Assembly: GCA_018433765.1 (NCBI GenBank)
Contig: JAHDQO010000006.1
Span: 247,034-311,033 of the forward strand
Source of the DNA: Tissierellales bacterium
GTDB lineage: Bacteria > Bacillota > Clostridia > Tissierellales > Sedimentibacteraceae
Reading direction: 5' to 3'
DNA: 64,000 nt
The notes below the pieces were generated by a model. That model saw only the letters and a program-made list of their open reading frames with translations, was not told the DNA's origin and made no database searches. The position numbers were made by a program, and so were the translations under genes. Every line of letters begins with the position of its first letter. Positions within the stretch are counted from its first letter, which is position 1. This document shows, piece after piece, positions 16,993-47,392 of the stretch.

Positions 16993-17009
16993 TATTATTC
17001 TTCTCCTCA

Positions 17010-17118
17010 TCTCTCAAAGTATTCTTTGCTGGAATTAGCACCTTGCAGAATTTCTGTAGGTTGCCGAAGTTTCATAGGGCCAGTCCCTCCACCTCTCTGG
17101 ATAAGAAGTACATTATTC
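17010..17118 (-). promoter_or_regulatory. SAM-I (S-box) riboswitch controlling metY-metA
   Basis: The minus strand reads cttcttatccagagaggtggagggactggccctatgaaacttcggcaacc...gtgctaattccagcaaaga, matching the S-box consensus. It sits in the metY leader. Confidence 0.85.
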
Positions 17119-32389: not shown

Positions 32390-32508
32390 CTTGAAACCTC
32401 CCTTTAATGTGACAACACAAATTAATTAATTCAGTTGATTTTTTATAAAATAAAAAACCCCTGAATTCTCCAGAGGCTGTATTACGAATGGAATAATATA
32501 TTTTATTA

Positions 32509-32620
32509 TCATCCTCTCCCATCCAGACTTTACTGTCGGTACCGGAATTTCACCGGTTCAGCCATTAAGGCTCGCGGACTTTACCGCCGGTAGGGAATTT
32601 CACCCTGCCCTGAAGATATT
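32509..32620 (-). promoter_or_regulatory. FMN riboswitch (RFN element) with terminator hairpin at about 32452-32480
   Basis: The minus strand reads cttcagggcagggtgaaattccctaccggcggtaaagtccgcgagcc...ggtgaaattccggtaccgacagtaaagtctggatgggagagg, which matches the RFN consensus. Confidence 0.85.
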
Positions 32621-32683
32621 TTATAACATTATAACATCTCTATTTAGTTTGTCAAGGTTAAAAATTTAACAAAACTATAAAGA

Positions 32684-41475: not shown

Positions 41476-41624
41476 AATTATAATTAAAAAGAGACCACTT
41501 TTTCAGGGTCTCTATAAAAAAATCAAAATTTAAAATTTATAATAATGAATTGTTAATTAAAAAGCCTGAAGAATAATTCTTCAGGCAATATAACAAAATC
41601 ACAAAAAAATCTTTGATTTTAAAC

Positions 41625-41725
41625 TTCTTTCATCCAGACTCTACTGTCGGCTCTGGAATTACACCAGATCAACCTTTCGGCTAGCGGGCTTTACCGCCGG
41701 TCGGGAATTACACCCTGCCCTGAAG
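41625..41725 (-). promoter_or_regulatory. FMN riboswitch (RFN element) of the rib operon; terminator at 41562-41588
   Basis: The minus strand reads cttcagggcagggtgtaattcccgaccggcggtaaagcccgctagcc...ggtgtaattccagagccgacagtagagtctggatgaaag, followed by the hairpin gcctgaagaattattcttcaggc and a U-run. Confidence 0.85.
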
Positions 41726-41825
41726 TTATACAATATTCATTTTTCATCACTTTATCATATTACAATAAACCTGTCAAGTATATTAGAATTTATTTTCTCA
41801 TAAAAATAAAAGTAAAAACTAGAAA

Positions 41826-42155
41826 TTAACTTTTTATCATCAAATATTTATTTCTAGCATCTTTTACTGCCGCAATTATTGCTTTTTGAGCCATTCCATG
41901 ATATCTTTCTTTTACTTCCAATTCTAATTCTTCTATTTCAGATTCAATATTGTATCCAACTACTATAGTATTAATAAAATCTGATGTTTTTTCTTTTACC
42001 ATATTTGAAGTTGAATCTACTATGATATTTGTTTGTTTGTCTATTATTAAGCCAATAAAAAATATCTCATGAGTTGAAAGTATTGGATCAGTTTTTCCTA
42101 ATCTTGATGTTCCTAAAACATAAACTGTATTTTTAGAGTATTGCATTTTTATCAC
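41826..42155 (-). CDS. Hypothetical conserved small protein (109 aa), last gene of the putative RiPP operon
   Basis: ORF 113 nt downstream of the B12-binding radical SAM gene on the same strand. Confidence 0.4.
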   Translation of the reverse strand: MIKMQYSKNTVYVLGTSRLGKTDPILSTHEIFFIGLIIDKQTNIIVDSTSNMVKEKTSDFINTIVVGYNIESEIEELELEVKERYHGMAQKAIIAAVKDARNKYLMIKS

Positions 42156-42268: not shown

Positions 42269-44080
42269 TTATACATAATTTTCCAAAGAATCTACCTTAA
42301 GTATTATTACATCAGTATCTTTTCTTATAAATTTTATTATAGTTTCCTCATATTTTTCAATGATGTTATCTTTTTTCACATCATAAACATTATATTTATA
42401 ATTATTTATATTTTGAGGTTTATTTGAATTATATAAAAAATTCATAGTATCATATTCAAATTTACACATTTCTTTTATAAAATTATTTTTATCACCAAAA
42501 TAACTTTTATTAACAAAATTATAAAAACTCTTATATGCATTTATTAACTTATTGGCTCCTATGGTAGTATCTTGGTAAGATGATATTTTCAATGTTTTTT
42601 CTTCAACTTCTTTATAACTATAGAACAATTGAAGTATATTATCATCATAGAATTCCATTAAAAACTTGTACGTACATCTAAAAGGGTGAAGCGTTCTTAA
42701 ATAAATGTAAGAAACAAATTTATCTAGAAAATTAACTTTATCAAGTAATTCAGATTTGTATTCAAAGAAATGTGTAAAAATTTCTTTATTGTTTTTAACC
42801 ATGTCTATAATATCATGTGGTAAATTATTCGTATAAGTAGCAGTTTCATTATTATACTCAGAATATGATAGTTTATCATAATACACATTTGTTAATTCTG
42901 TTCCTGCATAGAAGCATAATTTATGTAAATAAACTCTACTAATTAATATACTATGTTTTTTTGCCAGTATGTTAATCATAGAAATGGTTTGAAGTATATC
43001 ATTTTCTGTTTCTTGAGGAAACCCATAAATAAATGATAATCTTGGGTATACCTTATATTTGAATAATATATCAATTACATTATAAATATCTGCAATATCT
43101 AGATTCTTATTTATTATTTTCTGCATTCTTGGAGAACCTGTTTCAACACCTAAAAATATGCTTCTGCATCCTGTCTCTGACATTTTTTTTATTAATTTTT
43201 CATCTAGTGAATCTATTCTTGCACTGCATGTCCATTTGATGTTTAGGTTGTTTTTTTGCAAATTATTGCACATATCCATAATATATTGTCTGTTTGCTGT
43301 AAACATATCGTGTATAAAGTTAAAATTATTTACTCCATAATCATTTTTTAATCTCTTTATTTCTTCTACTGTTCTCTCTATAGATTTCATTCTGAAATTT
43401 CTTTTCCAAAAAGTCTTAGTTGAACAAAATGTACAGCTGTAGGGGCAGCCTCTACCTGTTTCTAATACAGCTTCTTTAACTTGTGACATATCTACTAAAG
43501 AATAGTCAATTTGAGGTAATTTATCTAAATCATTTATTAATTTTGGAAGACCATTATTAATAACTTGATTATCTTTTCTATAAGCTAATCCTTCTGTAGT
43601 ATCAAAATTATTATTATTTATAATATTGTGTAAAATAGTTTTTACTGTATCTTCTCCCTCACCTAACCCAACATAATCTATCCATGGAAATGTTCTTAAT
43701 GTATCCGTTGCTGTAAGGGTTGCATGAGGACCTCCAAAAACGATTTTCATGTTTGGACATTTTTCTTTTAATTTCTTAGCCAATATAACTGCAATATGAT
43801 AGATATTACACATGGTATAAAAAATAGCCACATCAACGTGTTTTTTTAAAATGAATTTACTCATATTGTCAATGTTTATATTAAAATTATTATAATATTT
43901 AAAATTACCTTTTTTACATTCATATCCAAAATCTATTATCTTTGTATCATATTCTTTGTGTTTATTTAATAAACTTACTAAAGACAATATTCCAAGAGGA
44001 GTACGATCATAACTAATTTCATGATCTATTATATTTATAAAAAATATAGATTTCATATTAGTTTTTCTCCTTAATATCAT
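42269..44080 (-). CDS. B12-binding domain radical SAM protein (class B) with a ~250-aa C-terminal extension
   Basis: N-terminal B12-binding-like region followed by the CxxxCxxC motif (CPYSCTFCS). The start may be the internal MKSIFF. Confidence 0.8.
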   Translation of the reverse strand: MILRRKTNMKSIFFINIIDHEISYDRTPLGILSLVSLLNKHKEYDTKIIDFGYECKKGNFKYYNNFNINIDNMSKFILKKHVDVAIFYTMCNIYHIAVILAKKLKEKCPNMKIVFGGPHATLTATDTLRTFPWIDYVGLGEGEDTVKTILHNIINNNNFDTTEGLAYRKDNQVINNGLPKLINDLDKLPQIDYSLVDMSQVKEAVLETGRGCPYSCTFCSTKTFWKRNFRMKSIERTVEEIKRLKNDYGVNNFNFIHDMFTANRQYIMDMCNNLQKNNLNIKWTCSARIDSLDEKLIKKMSETGCRSIFLGVETGSPRMQKIINKNLDIADIYNVIDILFKYKVYPRLSFIYGFPQETENDILQTISMINILAKKHSILISRVYLHKLCFYAGTELTNVYYDKLSYSEYNNETATYTNNLPHDIIDMVKNNKEIFTHFFEYKSELLDKVNFLDKFVSYIYLRTLHPFRCTYKFLMEFYDDNILQLFYSYKEVEEKTLKISSYQDTTIGANKLINAYKSFYNFVNKSYFGDKNNFIKEMCKFEYDTMNFLYNSNKPQNINNYKYNVYDVKKDNIIEKYEETIIKFIRKDTDVIILKVDSLENYV

Positions 44081-44228
44081 TTGTAAAATTATAATACATA
44101 CAATAATTTTATTTATTTTATATAGAAATAATATTTATATTAAGGGTAGTGCTTTTTTAATTATTTTAGTAAATACTGATTGCTTTACGTTATTTATTTT
44201 TATATTATGTAATAAATATTTATATTTA

Positions 44229-44378
44229 TTACATACCACCTCTCATGCAAGGATCACATACCCAATATGAATTTACATCTTGCATAGTTTCTGTTTGATT
44301 TAAATGTTCAACTATGCCTTTAATATTTTCTAAAGAAACTTCTGAAGTTAATGTGTTATTTACTTTTTCTATACTCAA
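44229..44378 (-). CDS. Putative RiPP precursor peptide A1 (49 aa; not in the ORF track; TTG start)
   Basis: AGGAGGTG RBS 6 nt before the TTG. Sequence MSIEKVNNTLTSEVSLENIKGIVEHLNQTETMQDVNSYWVCDPCMRGGM. A paralog lies at 46063-46212. The gene sits between the two radical SAM genes. Confidence 0.6.
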   Translation of the reverse strand: MSIEKVNNTLTSEVSLENIKGIVEHLNQTETMQDVNSYWVCDPCMRGGM

Positions 44379-44423
44379 AATTAACACCTCCTTTATCTAA
44401 TTCACTACCCTTAATTTACTAAT

Positions 44424-45815
44424 TTATAAATTATATAGTGGTAGATATCTGAGTGTATTTTTATCATAAAGAGATTCTCCTATTATATTTCTAAGCTTAT
44501 CCGGAGCATTTTTACATAAACTTCCATAAATAGCTACTGTAAGTTCTATACTTGATTTTCTCAATTTACATAAAGCATCATTTGATTTAACAATATTACC
44601 TGAATATATGTAATTTTCATGTATACATCCTCCTAGGCAAATTCTTTTAGCCCAGCATTCATTGCAGTAAGATAAATCTTTATTGTAATGTATAGGATTT
44701 AAAGATTTTATATCATTTATATTTCCTACTATAAAATTATCATCTCCACAAAACCTATGACATGCATACATATCACCGTTTGTATCAATTGTAAACTTAT
44801 CATTTATAGGACAAAAATTATCTGAACGTATGTCAGGATACAAAGACGCGAAACTCCTCAAGAATGGCGGAAGTTGTATAGATTCATTTTGTTTAACTGA
44901 ATTTATGTAATATGTACAAATGTCTTTATAAACATTTATTAATTCATCTACATCATTCTCATTATTAAAGCCTACTTCCTCATCTGCTACAATAGCTGTA
45001 GTAAGATCTAAGTCATTATTATTGCAGTATTTATAAAAATCAAAATAATCTTTTACAGTTTCTTTGGTAATAGTATTCTTAAATGTTGAAATTGATTTGA
45101 GATCACTGTACATTTTTACCTTGTCCATTATTAAATCAAAGGTAGGTTTATTATCCATAGTTACTCTGTTTTTATCATGAATTTCTTTATTACCATCTAC
45201 ACTTGTCATGATATATATATTGTTTTGCTTTATAATTTCCATTATCCTATCATTGTATAAAGAACCGTTAGTTGTAATTGAAAATACAGCCAAATTATTC
45301 CAGTTATTTTGTTTAATGTAATTTATTGCATATTCAATTAAATCTACTTTTAATAGAGGTTCTCCTCCAAAAAAACTTATTGTTTTTTTATCATTATCAT
45401 TATCTAAAAATAATAAATCTATTGCCTTTTTTATAATTTCTTTACTCATGTCTTTTTTCTTTTTATTTTTTTCAAAACAATAATTACAGTTAAAATTACA
45501 TCTATTTGTTAACATCAACGTTAGTGCTTCACAATTTTTATCTGTAACTACATTGAAATTTTCATTACTTTCTTTATTATGAGAACTAATTATCTTATTA
45601 TCTATTAGTATATTTAATGCTTCAATTGCTTTGTCTATTGATGTCTTGTCATATTTATTAGTTAACAATACTTTTATTTCTTTAATGCTGTTTCCCTCAT
45701 TATATTTATTCAAAACATCATATGTAAGAATATTTAAACTAAATACAAAAGAAGTTTTAAAATCATATGCAAAAACATCTCCGCAAAAATTAAAAAAAAC
45801 CATAAATTTGTCCAT
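44424..45815 (-). CDS. Radical SAM/SPASM-domain peptide maturase with an N-terminal RRE-like region
   Basis: CNFNCNYC radical SAM motif. C-terminal SPASM cysteines CxxCxxxxxCxxxC (CNECWAKRICLGGC) plus auxiliary Cys residues. About 100 aa precede the rSAM core. Confidence 0.85.
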   Translation of the reverse strand: MDKFMVFFNFCGDVFAYDFKTSFVFSLNILTYDVLNKYNEGNSIKEIKVLLTNKYDKTSIDKAIEALNILIDNKIISSHNKESNENFNVVTDKNCEALTLMLTNRCNFNCNYCFEKNKKKKDMSKEIIKKAIDLLFLDNDNDKKTISFFGGEPLLKVDLIEYAINYIKQNNWNNLAVFSITTNGSLYNDRIMEIIKQNNIYIMTSVDGNKEIHDKNRVTMDNKPTFDLIMDKVKMYSDLKSISTFKNTITKETVKDYFDFYKYCNNNDLDLTTAIVADEEVGFNNENDVDELINVYKDICTYYINSVKQNESIQLPPFLRSFASLYPDIRSDNFCPINDKFTIDTNGDMYACHRFCGDDNFIVGNINDIKSLNPIHYNKDLSYCNECWAKRICLGGCIHENYIYSGNIVKSNDALCKLRKSSIELTVAIYGSLCKNAPDKLRNIIGESLYDKNTLRYLPLYNL

Positions 45816-45879
45816 TTATTATCCTCTTTTCCTATCCACTTTTTGTTATATATTATTATATTATATGTACATCATAGTT

Positions 45880-45965
45880 TTTATTATATTTTAATAAGCT
45901 TACTAAAGACAATTTTCCAAAGGGAGTGTGTTATATATTACATAATTTTGTTTATTTCACATTTA
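45880..45965 (-). pseudogene. Remnant of the 5' end of a B12-binding radical SAM gene (duplicate of about 43965-44025)
   Basis: Nucleotide similarity: gcttactaaagacaattttccaaagggagtgtg here against cttactaaagacaatattccaagaggagtacg in the intact gene. Confidence 0.4.
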
Positions 45966-46062
45966 AATAGTTATATATTAAGGGTAGTGTTTTTTATTAT
46001 TTTAAAAAATGTTTATTCCTTTAAATAAATTATTTATATTTGTAATAAAATACTTATATCTT

Positions 46063-46212
46063 TTAGTGTGGTGCTACACCACAAGGATCACATATATAAT
46101 ATGAATTTACATCTTGCATAGTTTCAGATTGATTTAAATGTTCAGCTAGTCCTTTAATTTCGTTTAAAGAAGCTTTAGAAGTTAATGTATTGTTAACTTT
46201 TTCTATACTCAA
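46063..46212 (-). CDS. Putative RiPP precursor peptide A2 (49 aa; not in the ORF track; TTG start)
   Basis: AGGAGGTG RBS. Sequence MSIEKVNNTLTSKASLNEIKGLAEHLNQSETMQDVNSYYICDPCGVAPH. Leader about 80% identical to A1, with a divergent core. Confidence 0.55.
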   Translation of the reverse strand: MSIEKVNNTLTSKASLNEIKGLAEHLNQSETMQDVNSYYICDPCGVAPH

Positions 46213-46214
46213 AT

Positions 46215-46470
46215 TTAGCACCTCCTTTGTCTAATATCACTACCCCTAATTTCCTAATTTATAGATTATGTAGCGGTAGATATCTAAGCGTATTCTTATC
46301 AAATTTATATATATGTATCCTCCAAGACAAATTCTTTTAGATAAGTATTCATTTAAATAATATAAATCTTTAATACAACGTATTGTGTTTAAAAATTGTA
46401 TATTATTTATACTATTTACTTTAAATTAAGATTGTTTAAGCTAATACAAAATAAGTTTTCAAAATCATAT
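46215..46470 (-). pseudogene. Degenerate remnant of a second radical SAM/SPASM maturase gene (3' and 5' ends retained, interior deleted)
   Basis: 46215-46330 aligns to the 3' end of the maturase gene (44395-44700) with a deletion. 46400-46470 aligns to its 5' end (45740-45815). Confidence 0.5.
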
Positions 46471-46750
46471 GCAAAAATATCTCCACAATTGTAATAAAAT
46501 ATAGTTTATACATTATTATACTATTTTATATGAATATTTTGTAATAATATGTTTTATTTTGTAATATTTTATTATTTATTACATTATAGTGTATTATTAT
46601 ATCAATGTCAAATTTTTGTTTATATTAATTTAAATGTAATTTTATTGAATTTTATTGTAAAACAAAAAAATAATGACATTCAAGGATAAATACTCTTAAA
46701 TGTCATTATTGATATAACTTTAATTTAAGTAATTTTAAAGAATAATTTTT

Positions 46751-47392
46751 TTAATTTGAATTATTTATAATATCTATTATTTCATTCATATCATTAATTA
46801 TATGTTTAGGTTTATAATCTTTCTTTAATTGTTCTAAATTATTATGCCATCCAACTAGTACAGATGCAGCACCTGCATTTTTAGCACATTCAATATCAAA
46901 TCTTGAATCTCCTATAAATAATGTTTCCTCAGGTCTGCTATCTAATATTTTTAATGCTTTTAATAATGGTTCAGGATGTGGTTTATGATTTTCAACCTCA
47001 TCTGCCGGTACAATAACTTTAAAATATTTATCTATATTAAATAATTTTAATGCATGATCTGTAGTATTTCTGAGTCTAGACGTTACTATACCCATTTTAA
47101 TTCCTCTATTCATCAATTCTTCTAATGTTTCTTTAGAATTACTAAACAGTTTTACTTCTAAATCAAATCGTCCAAATTGATAATCTCTATAATCTTTAAC
47201 TACTTCCTCAAATGGTTCATTAAACTCTCTTTCTATTGTTGTTCTCAATGGTTCACCAAAGCTTTGTGAAATATATTCAACAGTCTTTTCTTCACCATAA
47301 TATTTTTTATATATGCAGTTGAAAGAGTTTACTATCAATTGACTTGTATCAGCTAACGTCCCATCAAAGTCAAAAATTACAGTTGTTATCAT
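46751..47392 (-). CDS. HAD-IA family hydrolase (PpaX/phosphoglycolate phosphatase-like)
   Basis: Motif I FDFDGTLADT, motif IV GDS.FD. Confidence 0.8.
   Translation of the reverse strand: MITTVIFDFDGTLADTSQLIVNSFNCIYKKYYGEEKTVEYISQSFGEPLRTTIEREFNEPFEEVVKDYRDYQFGRFDLEVKLFSNSKETLEELMNRGIKMGIVTSRLRNTTDHALKLFNIDKYFKVIVPADEVENHKPHPEPLLKALKILDSRPEETLFIGDSRFDIECAKNAGAASVLVGWHNNLEQLKKDYKPKHIINDMNEIIDIINNSN

What the first reader, a model, noticed from the sequence alone, without database searches (positions are those of the whole stretch)
45816..46480. Decayed tandem duplicate of the precursor/maturase module upstream of the intact RiPP genes
Nucleotide comparison shows that 45880-45965 matches the 5' end of the B12-binding rSAM gene (about 43965-44025). 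46063-46212 is an intact second precursor gene. 46215-46330 and 46400-46470 match the 3' and 5' ends of the SPASM maturase gene (44395-44700 and 45740-45815) with a large internal deletion. The locus was therefore once a tandem duplication of [SPASM maturase - precursor - B12 rSAM]. The upstream enzyme copies have decayed, but the second precursor remains intact with a diverged core. This is the pattern expected when one maturase services several precursors, and it is direct evidence that the small ORFs are under selection.
Basis: seen in the sequence. Interest (0 to 1): 0.6.

Follow-up and report, generated by a model that had tools for sequence, protein, structure and literature searches.

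The report
Decayed duplicate keeping a second peptide gene
A small peptide-antibiotic-type gene cluster was once partly duplicated in tandem; the extra enzyme copy has rotted to fragments, but the extra 49-codon peptide gene, its ribosome site and the operon promoter survive. It is an ordinary piece of gene-cluster evolution in an otherwise very rare peptide family.

Summary
On the minus strand, 45859-46488 is a colinear, same-orientation, degraded copy of 43934-45786. There are four blocks at 76-87% identity (317, 90, 72 and 58 bits; the best of 100 dinucleotide shuffles scored 36.5).

The extra SPASM radical-SAM gene keeps about 17% of its length. It has two out-of-frame deletions (145 and 989 bp) and has lost three SPASM cysteines.

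The B12-radical-SAM piece is only codons 19-41 and has no start codon. Nothing shows that it was ever complete.

The second precursor gene (46063-46212) is intact, with its Shine-Dalgarno sequence and TTG start. It lies downstream of a perfect TTGACA-17-TATAAT promoter (46611-46583).

The same decayed layout occurs in a strain 94.5% identical to the window. A contig 85% identical has a single module.

Comparative tests give modest support for selection on precursor B. Its dN/dS is about 0.2, against 0.62 for the neighbouring enzyme remnant. Its core is identical between strains.

Two extras emerged. The core of precursor A, next to the intact enzymes, is hypervariable (11 of 42 nt differ between the 94.5%-identical strains). 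Every precursor cistron is bracketed by an invariant 12-13-nt inverted repeat, which folds as a closing RNA stem.

This is a new member of a known kind, of moderate-to-low interest.

The parts
46583..46611 (-). Candidate operon promoter P1, TTGACA-17 nt-TATAAT (12/12 matches). It lies upstream of the decayed copy, so the debris and precursor B are promoter-proximal.
   Evidence: It is one of only three perfect matches in the 64-kb window, and another of the three sits directly upstream of an FMN riboswitch. This is a consensus match only; no transcript data exist.
46427..46488 (-). 5' remnant of the duplicated SPASM radical-SAM gene (about codons 10-30). It reads NCGDIFAYDFENLFCISLNNL, against NFCGDVFAYDFKTSFVFSLNIL in the intact gene.
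   Evidence: 87% nt identity to 45725-45786. Possible degenerate RBS/ATG at ~46500-46545, supported only weakly.
46302..46425 (-). Internal remnant of the duplicated SPASM gene (the SPASM cysteine region). Three of four cysteines are replaced. It is flanked by a 989-bp deletion on its 5' side and a 145-bp deletion on its 3' side.
   Evidence: 76% identity to 44612-44735; dN/dS 0.62.
46258..46301 (-). 3' remnant of the duplicated SPASM gene (FDKNTLRYLPLHNL*).
46238..46249 (-). 5' arm of the inverted repeat bracketing precursor B (UUAGGGGUAGUG on the sense RNA). Its A->G change keeps pairing as G.U.
46063..46212 (-). Precursor B, an intact 49-codon gene: MSIEKVNNTLTSKASLNEIKGLAEHLNQSETMQDVNSYYICDPCGVAPH. 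It has a TTG start with GGAGG upstream.
45978..45989 (-). 3' arm of the inverted repeat bracketing precursor B (CACUACCCUUAA on the sense RNA).
45942..46062 (-). Duplicated spacer downstream of precursor B, homologous to 44103-44228.
45928..45941 (-). Deletion scar. These 14 nt stand in place of the ~100 nt (44003-44102) that carry the RBS, start codon and first ~18 codons of the B12-rSAM gene.
   Evidence: alignment.
45859..45927 (-). B12-radical-SAM gene fragment (codons ~19-41; HTPFGKLSLVSLLKYNKNYDVHII followed by stops). It also contains a 10/12 promoter-like site, TTGTCT-18-TATAAT, at 45912-45883, just upstream of the intact SPASM gene.
   Evidence: 78% identity to 43934-44002; 87% to the L003 orthologue in the per-segment alignment.
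44424..45815 (-). Intact SPASM radical-SAM maturase (463 aa; CX3CX2C at residues 106-113). It is the copy the remnants are compared with.
44229..44378 (-). Precursor A: MSIEKVNNTLTSEVSLENIKGIVEHLNQTETMQDVNSYWVCDPCMRGGM. Its core is hypervariable between strains.
44140..44414 (-). Span bracketed by the inverted-repeat arms of precursor A (arms at 44403-44414 and 44140-44151).
   Evidence: (I21).
42269..44056 (-). Intact B12-binding radical-SAM gene (595 aa).

Best explanation
A segment of about 1.9 kb of a minimal RiPP operon (promoter -> SPASM radical-SAM maturase -> 49-aa precursor -> B12 radical-SAM enzyme, all on the minus strand) was duplicated in tandem. The segment carried the SPASM gene, the precursor cistron and at least the first ~40 codons of the B12 gene.

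Shown:
- The promoter-proximal copy of the SPASM gene was then destroyed by two internal deletions and by point decay.
- The B12 piece lost its start codon.
- The promoter-proximal precursor cistron (precursor B) was kept whole, with its Shine-Dalgarno sequence, TTG start and flanking repeat arms.

Inferred working model:
- Transcription starts at the consensus promoter at 46611-46583 and runs through ~330 nt of enzyme debris, which now serves as a 5' leader.
- It then passes through precursor B, the single surviving SPASM gene, precursor A and the B12 gene.
- The one surviving enzyme pair therefore receives two substrates. These share a near-identical leader (29 of 36 residues) and the invariant motif TMQDVNSY-x-x-CDPC, but have different C-terminal tails.
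- Each precursor cistron is closed by a conserved 12-13-bp long-range RNA stem (UUAAGGGUAGUG / CACUACCCUUAA). Most likely this stem marks the precursor message for processing or stabilisation, so that peptide is made in excess over enzyme.
For: Colinear duplicate well above chance.

Decay of the SPASM copy:
- Deletions of 145 and 989 bp and loss of cysteine ligands.
- dN/dS 0.62, against 0.05 for the intact copy.

Age and stability:
- The same decayed layout is present in L002 (94.5% identical, a different sample) and in L001/L009, so the state is old and stable.
- dS between copies A and B (~0.45) is about the dS between the window and L003 (~0.49).

Constraint on precursor B:
- The ORF, RBS and start codon are intact in every double-module contig recovered: the window, L001 and L009 (the same strain, 99.7-100% identical) and L002.
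- 0 of 45 differences in the upstream spacer between strains.
- dN/dS 0.19 (window vs L002) and 0.22 (vs L003).
- The core is identical between strains; against L003 it shows 3 amino-acid but 9 nucleotide differences.
- On the B branch the leader diverged 8.8%, against 19.5% for the SPASM remnant.

Promoter: a perfect consensus match, one of three in 64 kb.

Repeat arms:
- They occur exactly four times in the window, always bracketing a precursor (0.39 expected by chance).
- They are present in 5 of 5 cistrons.
- 23 of 24 arm columns are invariant, against 76 of 143 other non-coding columns (P = 2e-5).
- The only change is A-U to G.U on the sense RNA.
- The stem appears in both the MFE and the centroid folds.
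Against: - There are no expression or chemistry data.
- All selection statistics rest on few substitutions (7 nt differences between strains in precursor B). Between the two strains the precursor-B ORF is no more conserved at nucleotide level than the debris (4.7% vs ~5%).
- The stem has no compensatory double change, so RNA pairing is supported only by conservation and one wobble.
- Homology of the two SPASM upstream regions beyond the ORF is weak (global alignment p ~ 0.04). The exact duplication endpoints, and whether the B12 copy was ever complete, are therefore unresolved.
- The cluster has no obvious protease or exporter.
- The only single-module relative (L003) has a 5'-truncated maturase and no visible promoter, so it cannot show the ancestral state.
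Confidence: 0.7

Rival explanations
1. One reading: a complete [SPASM - precursor - B12 rSAM] module was duplicated. Both upstream enzyme genes later decayed, and the B12 copy lost everything after codon ~41.
For: A B12-derived piece is present at the expected position. It has demonstrably suffered at least one deletion, which removed its RBS and start codon, so further loss is conceivable.
Against: No B12 sequence beyond codon ~41 survives, whereas the SPASM copy left pieces from three separate regions. The B12 homology ends ~43 nt upstream of the intact SPASM start codon. That short tail, which carries the SPASM RBS, weakly resembles the region upstream of the decayed copy. This is what a duplication endpoint inside the B12 gene would produce, with no extra event needed.
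Confidence: 0.25
2. Precursor B is a neutral relic that has simply not yet been hit. It is not translated or not modified, and the cluster effectively has one precursor.
For: Nucleotide divergence of the precursor-B ORF between strains (4.7%) equals that of the flanking debris. A 41-codon stretch of the dead SPASM copy is also free of stops. All counts are small.
Against: dN/dS is 0.19-0.22, against 0.62 for the debris. The core is unchanged between strains and nearly unchanged against L003 despite saturated synonymous sites. The RBS, TTG start and both repeat arms are intact, while the adjacent genes lost >80% of their length. The ORF sits first behind the best promoter of the locus.
Confidence: 0.12
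3. Copy B did not arise in situ. It is a piece of a homologous cluster from a related lineage, inserted next to the resident cluster by recombination (a xenologous tandem copy).
For: A-B divergence (dS ~0.45) is as large as the divergence from the L003 lineage. The B core and the B12 fragment are closer to L003 than to copy A: core 21% vs 40% nt differences, B12 fragment 13% vs 22%.
Against: The leader and both spacers are about equidistant among A, B and L003. The excess A-specific change is concentrated in the core, which is independently hypervariable between strains. The B12-fragment difference is 9 vs 15 of 69 sites, which is not significant. Same orientation, direct adjacency and matching order fit an ordinary tandem duplication.
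Confidence: 0.1
4. The inverted repeats around each precursor act at the DNA level, either as recombination sites of an invertible or mobile cassette or as operator half-sites, rather than as an RNA stem.
For: Inverted repeats ~250 bp apart flanking a small functional unit resemble invertible switches. The arms are more conserved than the ORF.
Against: All four independent contigs show the same orientation. No recombinase or regulator gene is in the locus. Homology between the copies runs straight through and well beyond the arms, so the cassette did not move as a unit. The single arm change is a wobble pair on the sense transcript but a C/A mismatch on the other strand. A pattern search for the two arms in JGI metagenome contigs found only chance matches.
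Confidence: 0.08

Closest known systems
Multi-precursor RiPP clusters in which one maturase modifies several precursors with conserved leaders and variable cores (for example prochlorosin-type lanthipeptides and two-peptide lantibiotics such as roseocin; general knowledge, PMC10027976)
   Same: Two adjacent precursor genes share a near-identical leader (29 of 36 residues) and have divergent C-terminal cores. There is a single intact copy of each modifying enzyme. The precursors arose by local duplication.
   Different: The duplication took the enzyme gene along, and its wreck is still visible. The precursor family has no relatives outside this lineage: searches of 5.8 billion and 1.84 billion proteins found only itself. 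No chemistry is known.
PapB / CteB-type radical SAM-SPASM thioether (ranthipeptide, SCIFF) maturases
   Same: The best NCBIfam hit is the PapB family (E 1.6e-65), followed by QhpD and the SCIFF maturase. The closest solved structure is 5WGG/5WHY (CteB, from memory), E 6e-44 over residues 8-427. The enzyme has the CX3CX2C motif and a C-terminal cysteine cluster. The precursors carry an invariant Cys-Asp-Pro-Cys, i.e. Cys and Asp as in PapB substrates (PapB substrate motif recalled from memory).
   Different: The score of 221.5 bits is below the PapB family cut-off of 340. The nearest non-orthologous proteins are only 33-35% identical and sit in other cluster types, with YcaO or with S41 peptidase and ABC transporter. 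The precursors have two Cys, not six, and no CX3D repeats.
ApyD, the B12-dependent radical SAM Tyr C-beta methyltransferase of aminopyruvatide biosynthesis (PMC10635010)
   Same: It is the best NCBIfam hit of the B12-rSAM gene (E 2.2e-87). The gene has B12-binding plus radical SAM domains. The precursors have an invariant Tyr followed by Tyr or Trp just before the CDPC motif.
   Different: The score of 294 bits is far below the cut-off of 750. The closest relatives (46-48% identity) lie in clostridial clusters with an MFS transporter, an M16 peptidase and 3-4 tandem precursors of unrelated, Cys-free sequence. The substrate and reaction here are unknown.
Precursor-mRNA processing or stabilisation by stem-loops in bacteriocin and lantibiotic operons (general knowledge)
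   Same: A conserved RNA structure is associated specifically with the precursor cistron inside a polycistronic operon.
   Different: Here it is a long-range stem that encloses the whole cistron including its RBS (~250-nt loop), not a local hairpin downstream of the precursor. No Rfam family matches. The function is untested.

Membership tests
Tandem segmental duplication with pseudogenised copy | Two adjacent copies in the same orientation and the same internal order, with similarity beyond chance | tested here: met
   Four colinear plus/plus blocks at 58-317 bits, against a shuffle maximum of 36.5 bits.
Tandem segmental duplication with pseudogenised copy | One copy carries disabling lesions and shows relaxed constraint | tested here: met
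   Deletions of 145 and 989 bp, both out of frame; three SPASM cysteines lost; dN/dS 0.62 vs 0.05.
Tandem segmental duplication with pseudogenised copy | A defined junction (end of unit 1 abutting start of unit 2) | tested here: inconclusive
   B12 homology ends at 45859, ~43 nt upstream of the SPASM start codon. Homology of 45787-45893 to 46489-46602 is only weakly supported (local z = 4.2; global p ~ 0.04).
Multi-precursor RiPP cluster | At least two precursor genes with conserved leader and variable core next to the maturase genes | tested here: met
   Alignment A1: 33 invariant columns, with variation concentrated in the last 5 residues and at positions 39-40. The genes are adjacent to the SPASM and B12 rSAM genes.
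Multi-precursor RiPP cluster | Both precursors are expressed and modified by the same enzymes | not testable with these tools
   Requires transcriptomics and mass spectrometry.
PapB-family ranthipeptide maturase (NF047865) | Whole-protein score at or above the curated cut-off (340 bits) | tested here: not met
   221.5 bits.
PapB-family ranthipeptide maturase (NF047865) | Radical SAM CX3CX2C motif and C-terminal SPASM cysteine cluster | tested here: met
   CNFNCNYC at residues 106-113 and CNECWAKRICLGGC near the C-terminus (translation). Pfam hits Radical_SAM and Fer4_12; Pfam's own SPASM model was not hit at E <= 0.01.
PapB-family ranthipeptide maturase (NF047865) | Forms Cys-S to non-alpha carbon thioethers | not testable with these tools
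   Biochemistry needed.
ApyD-family B12 radical SAM (NF050148) | Whole-protein score at or above the curated cut-off (750 bits) | tested here: not met
   294 bits.
ApyD-family B12 radical SAM (NF050148) | N-terminal B12-binding domain plus radical SAM domain | tested here: met
   PF02310 at residues 10-141 and PF04055 at residues 199-360.

The most novel reading that the evidence does not exclude
The locus may encode a deliberately asymmetric two-peptide system. Precursor B would be a conserved 'public' peptide: its core is identical between strains and near-identical in a relative at 85% nucleotide identity. Precursor A would be a rapidly diversifying 'private' peptide: 6 of 13 core residues differ between strains 94.5% identical, and dN/dS in the core is about 1.9. 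Both would be made by one enzyme pair. Each would be expressed from a self-contained cistron that a conserved long-range RNA stem excises or stabilises. On this reading the stem-bracketed precursor cassette would be a new kind of expression module for RiPP precursors, and the decayed duplicate would be how the system acquired its second channel.
Probability: 0.15. Interest if true: 0.6.

Novelty: new member of a known kind. Interest (0 to 1): 0.33.

Why it matters
Precursor duplication with one shared maturase is a standard way for RiPP clusters to diversify. This locus catches the intermediate debris. It shows that the enzyme gene was co-duplicated and then discarded while the 150-nt peptide gene was kept. 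That is useful independent evidence that an unannotated 49-codon ORF is a real gene.

It also flags a very rare peptide family, seen in only two strains and one related contig among billions of proteins. The family has an uncharacterised pairing of a PapB/CteB-like thioether-type enzyme with an ApyD-like B12 methyltransferase-type enzyme, a strain-variable core, and a conserved RNA stem around each precursor. These points make the cluster a reasonable small target for heterologous expression. They do not change any general picture.

Tried and rejected
1. Looked for strains with an intact second module.
- Scans of one genome per GTDB species with the SPASM protein and with the precursor alignment found nothing.
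- A scan of JGI metagenome contigs with the precursor alignment found nothing.
- A profile search of 1.84 billion representative proteins found only the family's own cluster plus repetitive false positives.
- Only Logan contigs carry the locus (L001 and L009 the same strain, L002, L003).

2. L003 as the ancestral single-module state: rejected as uninformative. A deletion there joins the HAD terminator directly to SPASM codon ~71. That deletion would also have removed any copy B and the promoter.

3. Rooting the duplication relative to L003 by branch lengths: A, B and L003 form a near-trichotomy with mosaic shared states, so this is unresolved.

4. A third, more degraded repeat unit upstream of 46489: the local similarity to the B12 fragment (z = 4.2) is not robust in a global test (p ~ 0.04). 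It is treated as possible junction microhomology only.

5. The inverted repeat as a widespread element: the two-arm pattern in metagenome contigs gave 7 hits, all unrelated sequences of other composition. There is no Rfam match.

6. Intrinsic terminators in 43900-46800: none found.

7. The source organism could not be named. The proteins are in an unnamed NCBI contig of 311 kb. The composition is 28.6% G+C and the neighbours are clostridial-type genes.

Full report
**Layout**

All genes of the locus are on the minus strand. In order of transcription they are:
- a HAD/PpaX-like hydrolase (46751-47392) with a hairpin terminator
- a 262-nt spacer
- the region in question (45816-46488)
- a 463-aa radical SAM/SPASM enzyme (44424-45815)
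- a 49-codon ORF, precursor A (44229-44378)
- a 595-aa B12-binding radical SAM enzyme (42269-44056)
- a DUF3870 protein (41826-42155)
- an FMN riboswitch with the rib operon

**Observation**

blastn of the region against the intact genes gives four colinear, same-strand blocks:
- 45859-45927 ~ 43934-44002 (78%)
- 45942-46301 ~ 44103-44466 (80%, E 7e-90)
- 46302-46425 ~ 44612-44735 (76%)
- 46427-46488 ~ 45725-45786 (87%)

The repeat finder recovers the same families. One hundred dinucleotide-preserving shuffles never exceeded 36.5 bits, against 317, 90, 72 and 58 bits for the real blocks.

**Anatomy of the decayed copy**

The SPASM copy retains three pieces:
- Codons ~10-30: NCGDIFAYDFENLFCISLNNL.
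- A 41-codon piece of the SPASM cysteine region, in which SYCNECWAKRICLGGC has become YYLNEYLSKRICLGGY.
- The last 14 codons with the stop codon.

Between these pieces, 989 bp and 145 bp are missing. Neither length is a multiple of three.

The B12 piece is codons ~19-41 only (HTPFGKLSLVSLLKYNKNYDVHII, then stops). The ~100 nt that carry the RBS, start codon and first ~18 codons are replaced by 14 nt (45928-45941).

Everything belonging to the precursor cistron is whole: the spacer with GGAGG, the TTG start, 49 codons and the stop codon.

**Relatives**

The SPASM protein has only two close relatives among 5.8 billion proteins, and the next are 33-35% identical in unrelated cluster types.
- L001 and L009 are the same strain as the window (100% and 99.7% identical).
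- L002, from another sample, is 94.5% identical. It has the same decayed layout with the same deletions, so the decay predates the split of these strains.
- L003 is about 85% identical and has a single module. In it a deletion joins the hydrolase terminator to SPASM codon ~71, so any copy B and the promoter would have gone with it. L003 cannot show the ancestral state.

No relative with an intact second module was found.

**Is the small ORF under selection?**

Survival alone proves little. The 41-codon SPASM remnant is also stop-free. Window and L002 differ at 4.7% of sites in precursor B, against about 5% in the debris.

The pattern of change is informative:
- Precursor B has dN/dS 0.19 between strains and 0.22 against L003.
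- Its 13-residue core is identical between strains.
- Against L003 the core differs at 9 of 39 nucleotides but only 3 residues.
- The SPASM remnant gives dN/dS 0.62, where the intact copy gives 0.05 over the same codons.
- On the B branch the leader accumulated 8.8% change, against 19.5% in the SPASM remnant.
- The 45-nt spacer with the RBS shows no differences between strains.

The numbers are small but all point the same way, so I accept purifying selection on precursor B as likely.

**Age and extent of the duplication**

Synonymous divergence between A and B (~0.45) equals that between the window and L003 (~0.49). A, B and L003 are roughly equidistant in the leader and spacers. The duplication is therefore about as old as that species-level split.

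Whether a whole B12 gene was ever duplicated cannot be shown. Nothing beyond codon ~41 survives, and the homology ends ~43 nt upstream of the intact SPASM start codon. The short stretch in between, together with the SPASM RBS and ATG, loosely resembles the sequence upstream of the decayed SPASM copy. Its mismatches there are largely G-to-T, but a global test gives only p ~ 0.04.

A duplication endpoint inside the B12 gene is the more economical reading.

**Expression anatomy**

A perfect TTGACA-17-TATAAT lies at 46611-46583. It is one of three perfect matches in 64 kb, and another of the three precedes an FMN riboswitch. It sits upstream of the debris, so the decayed copy is promoter-proximal and precursor B is the first intact cistron behind it. 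A weaker 10/12 site (45912-45883) lies inside the B12 fragment, just upstream of the intact SPASM gene, and is conserved in L002. No intrinsic terminator was found.

Each precursor cistron is bracketed by an inverted repeat, TTA[A/G]GGGTAGTG ... CACTACCCTTAA, about 250 nt apart.
- The motif occurs exactly four times in the window, all at these positions (0.39 expected).
- It is present around all five cistrons in the window, L002 and L003.
- 23 of 24 arm columns are invariant, against 76 of 143 other non-coding columns (P = 2e-5) and 105 of 150 ORF columns.
- The single change, in both B copies, turns A-U into G.U on the sense RNA.
- MFE and centroid folds of both cistrons close with this stem (z = -3.95 and -2.81).

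I infer a long-range RNA stem that marks the precursor message for processing or stabilisation. There is no compensatory double change, and no Rfam family matches, so this remains an inference.

**A second extra**

The core of precursor A is a divergence hot spot. Eleven of 42 nt and 6 of 13 residues differ between strains that are 94.5% identical overall (binomial P = 1e-5, about 1e-3 after correction for windows). It ties for the most divergent 42-nt window of the 4.8-kb alignment.

| Source | Core |
|---|---|
| Window, precursor A | SYWVCDPCMRGGM |
| L002, precursor A | SYYECDPCHEACM |
| Window and L002, precursor B | SYYICDPCGVAPH |
| L003 (single precursor) | SYYICDPCSLGPH |

The B-type core therefore looks ancestral and conserved. 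The copy next to the intact enzymes is the one that diversifies.

**What the enzymes resemble**

- SPASM enzyme: the best family is PapB ranthipeptide maturases (221.5 bits, below the cut-off of 340), followed by QhpD and the SCIFF maturase. The closest solved structure is 5WGG/5WHY, E 6e-44 over residues 8-427. This includes the N-terminal ~100 residues that L003 has partly lost.
- B12 enzyme: the best family is ApyD (294 bits, below the cut-off of 750). ApyD is a Tyr C-beta methyltransferase (PMC10635010). The nearest outside relatives (46-48% identity) sit in clostridial clusters with an MFS transporter, an M16 peptidase and 3-4 tandem precursors of unrelated sequence.

Neither enzyme meets the membership cut-off of its closest family. 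A thioether link plus a C-methylation on the invariant Y-x-x-C-D-P-C region is a guess by analogy only.

**Verdict**

The stretch is a genuine decayed tandem duplicate that has kept a second, probably functional precursor gene at the promoter-proximal end of a minimal RiPP operon. It is unproven about a full second B12 gene, and too strong in calling ORF survival direct evidence of selection.

This mechanism of cluster evolution is well known. The particular peptide family is orphan and uncharacterised. Interest is moderate to low.

Noticed in passing
window 44229-44270 (core of precursor A) vs L002 2220-2261: The last 13 codons of precursor A differ at 11 of 42 nt and 6 of 13 residues between strains that are 94.5% identical overall. 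The paralogous B core is identical. This may reflect diversifying selection or a cassette swap.
   Followed up: partly
window 44140-44151/44403-44414 and 45978-45989/46238-46249: An invariant 12-13-nt inverted repeat brackets each precursor cistron. It is predicted to form a long-range closing stem on the sense RNA. No Rfam family matches, and it was not found elsewhere.
   Followed up: partly
L003 1937-2170: In the relative at 85% identity, a deletion joins the hydrolase terminator to codon ~71 of the SPASM gene. The promoter and the N-terminal (presumably peptide-binding) domain are lost. Yet the rest of the gene still shows dN/dS 0.15, and the precursor and B12 genes are intact.
   Followed up: partly
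L003 5566-7059: L003 carries an insertion between the B12-rSAM gene and the DUF3870 gene that is absent from the window. It contains an 84-aa ORF, a Crp-type HTH regulator and a POR_N fragment.
   Followed up: no
window 41794-41835: This is the second divergence hot spot between the window and L002 (11 of 42 nt). It lies at the 3' end of the DUF3870 gene and the adjacent spacer.
   Followed up: no
window 32507-32621, 41618-41731, 17004-17107: Two FMN riboswitches lie on the minus strand, one preceded by a perfect consensus promoter at 32655-32628. There is also one SAM riboswitch.
   Followed up: no
L018 3997-4576 and L017 3038-3193: The closest outside relatives of the B12-rSAM enzyme lie in clusters with an MFS transporter, an M16 peptidase and three near-identical tandem 53-aa precursors (MNKKDISIKDGKVVIDS...SNLKIVISVET). 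This is another apparently uncharacterised RiPP type that expanded by precursor duplication.
   Followed up: no
window 45883-45912: The surviving B12 gene fragment contains TTGTCT-18-TATAAT just upstream of the intact SPASM gene. The -10 hexamer is created by changes relative to the functional B12 gene and is conserved in L002. This may be co-option of the debris as an internal promoter.
   Followed up: no
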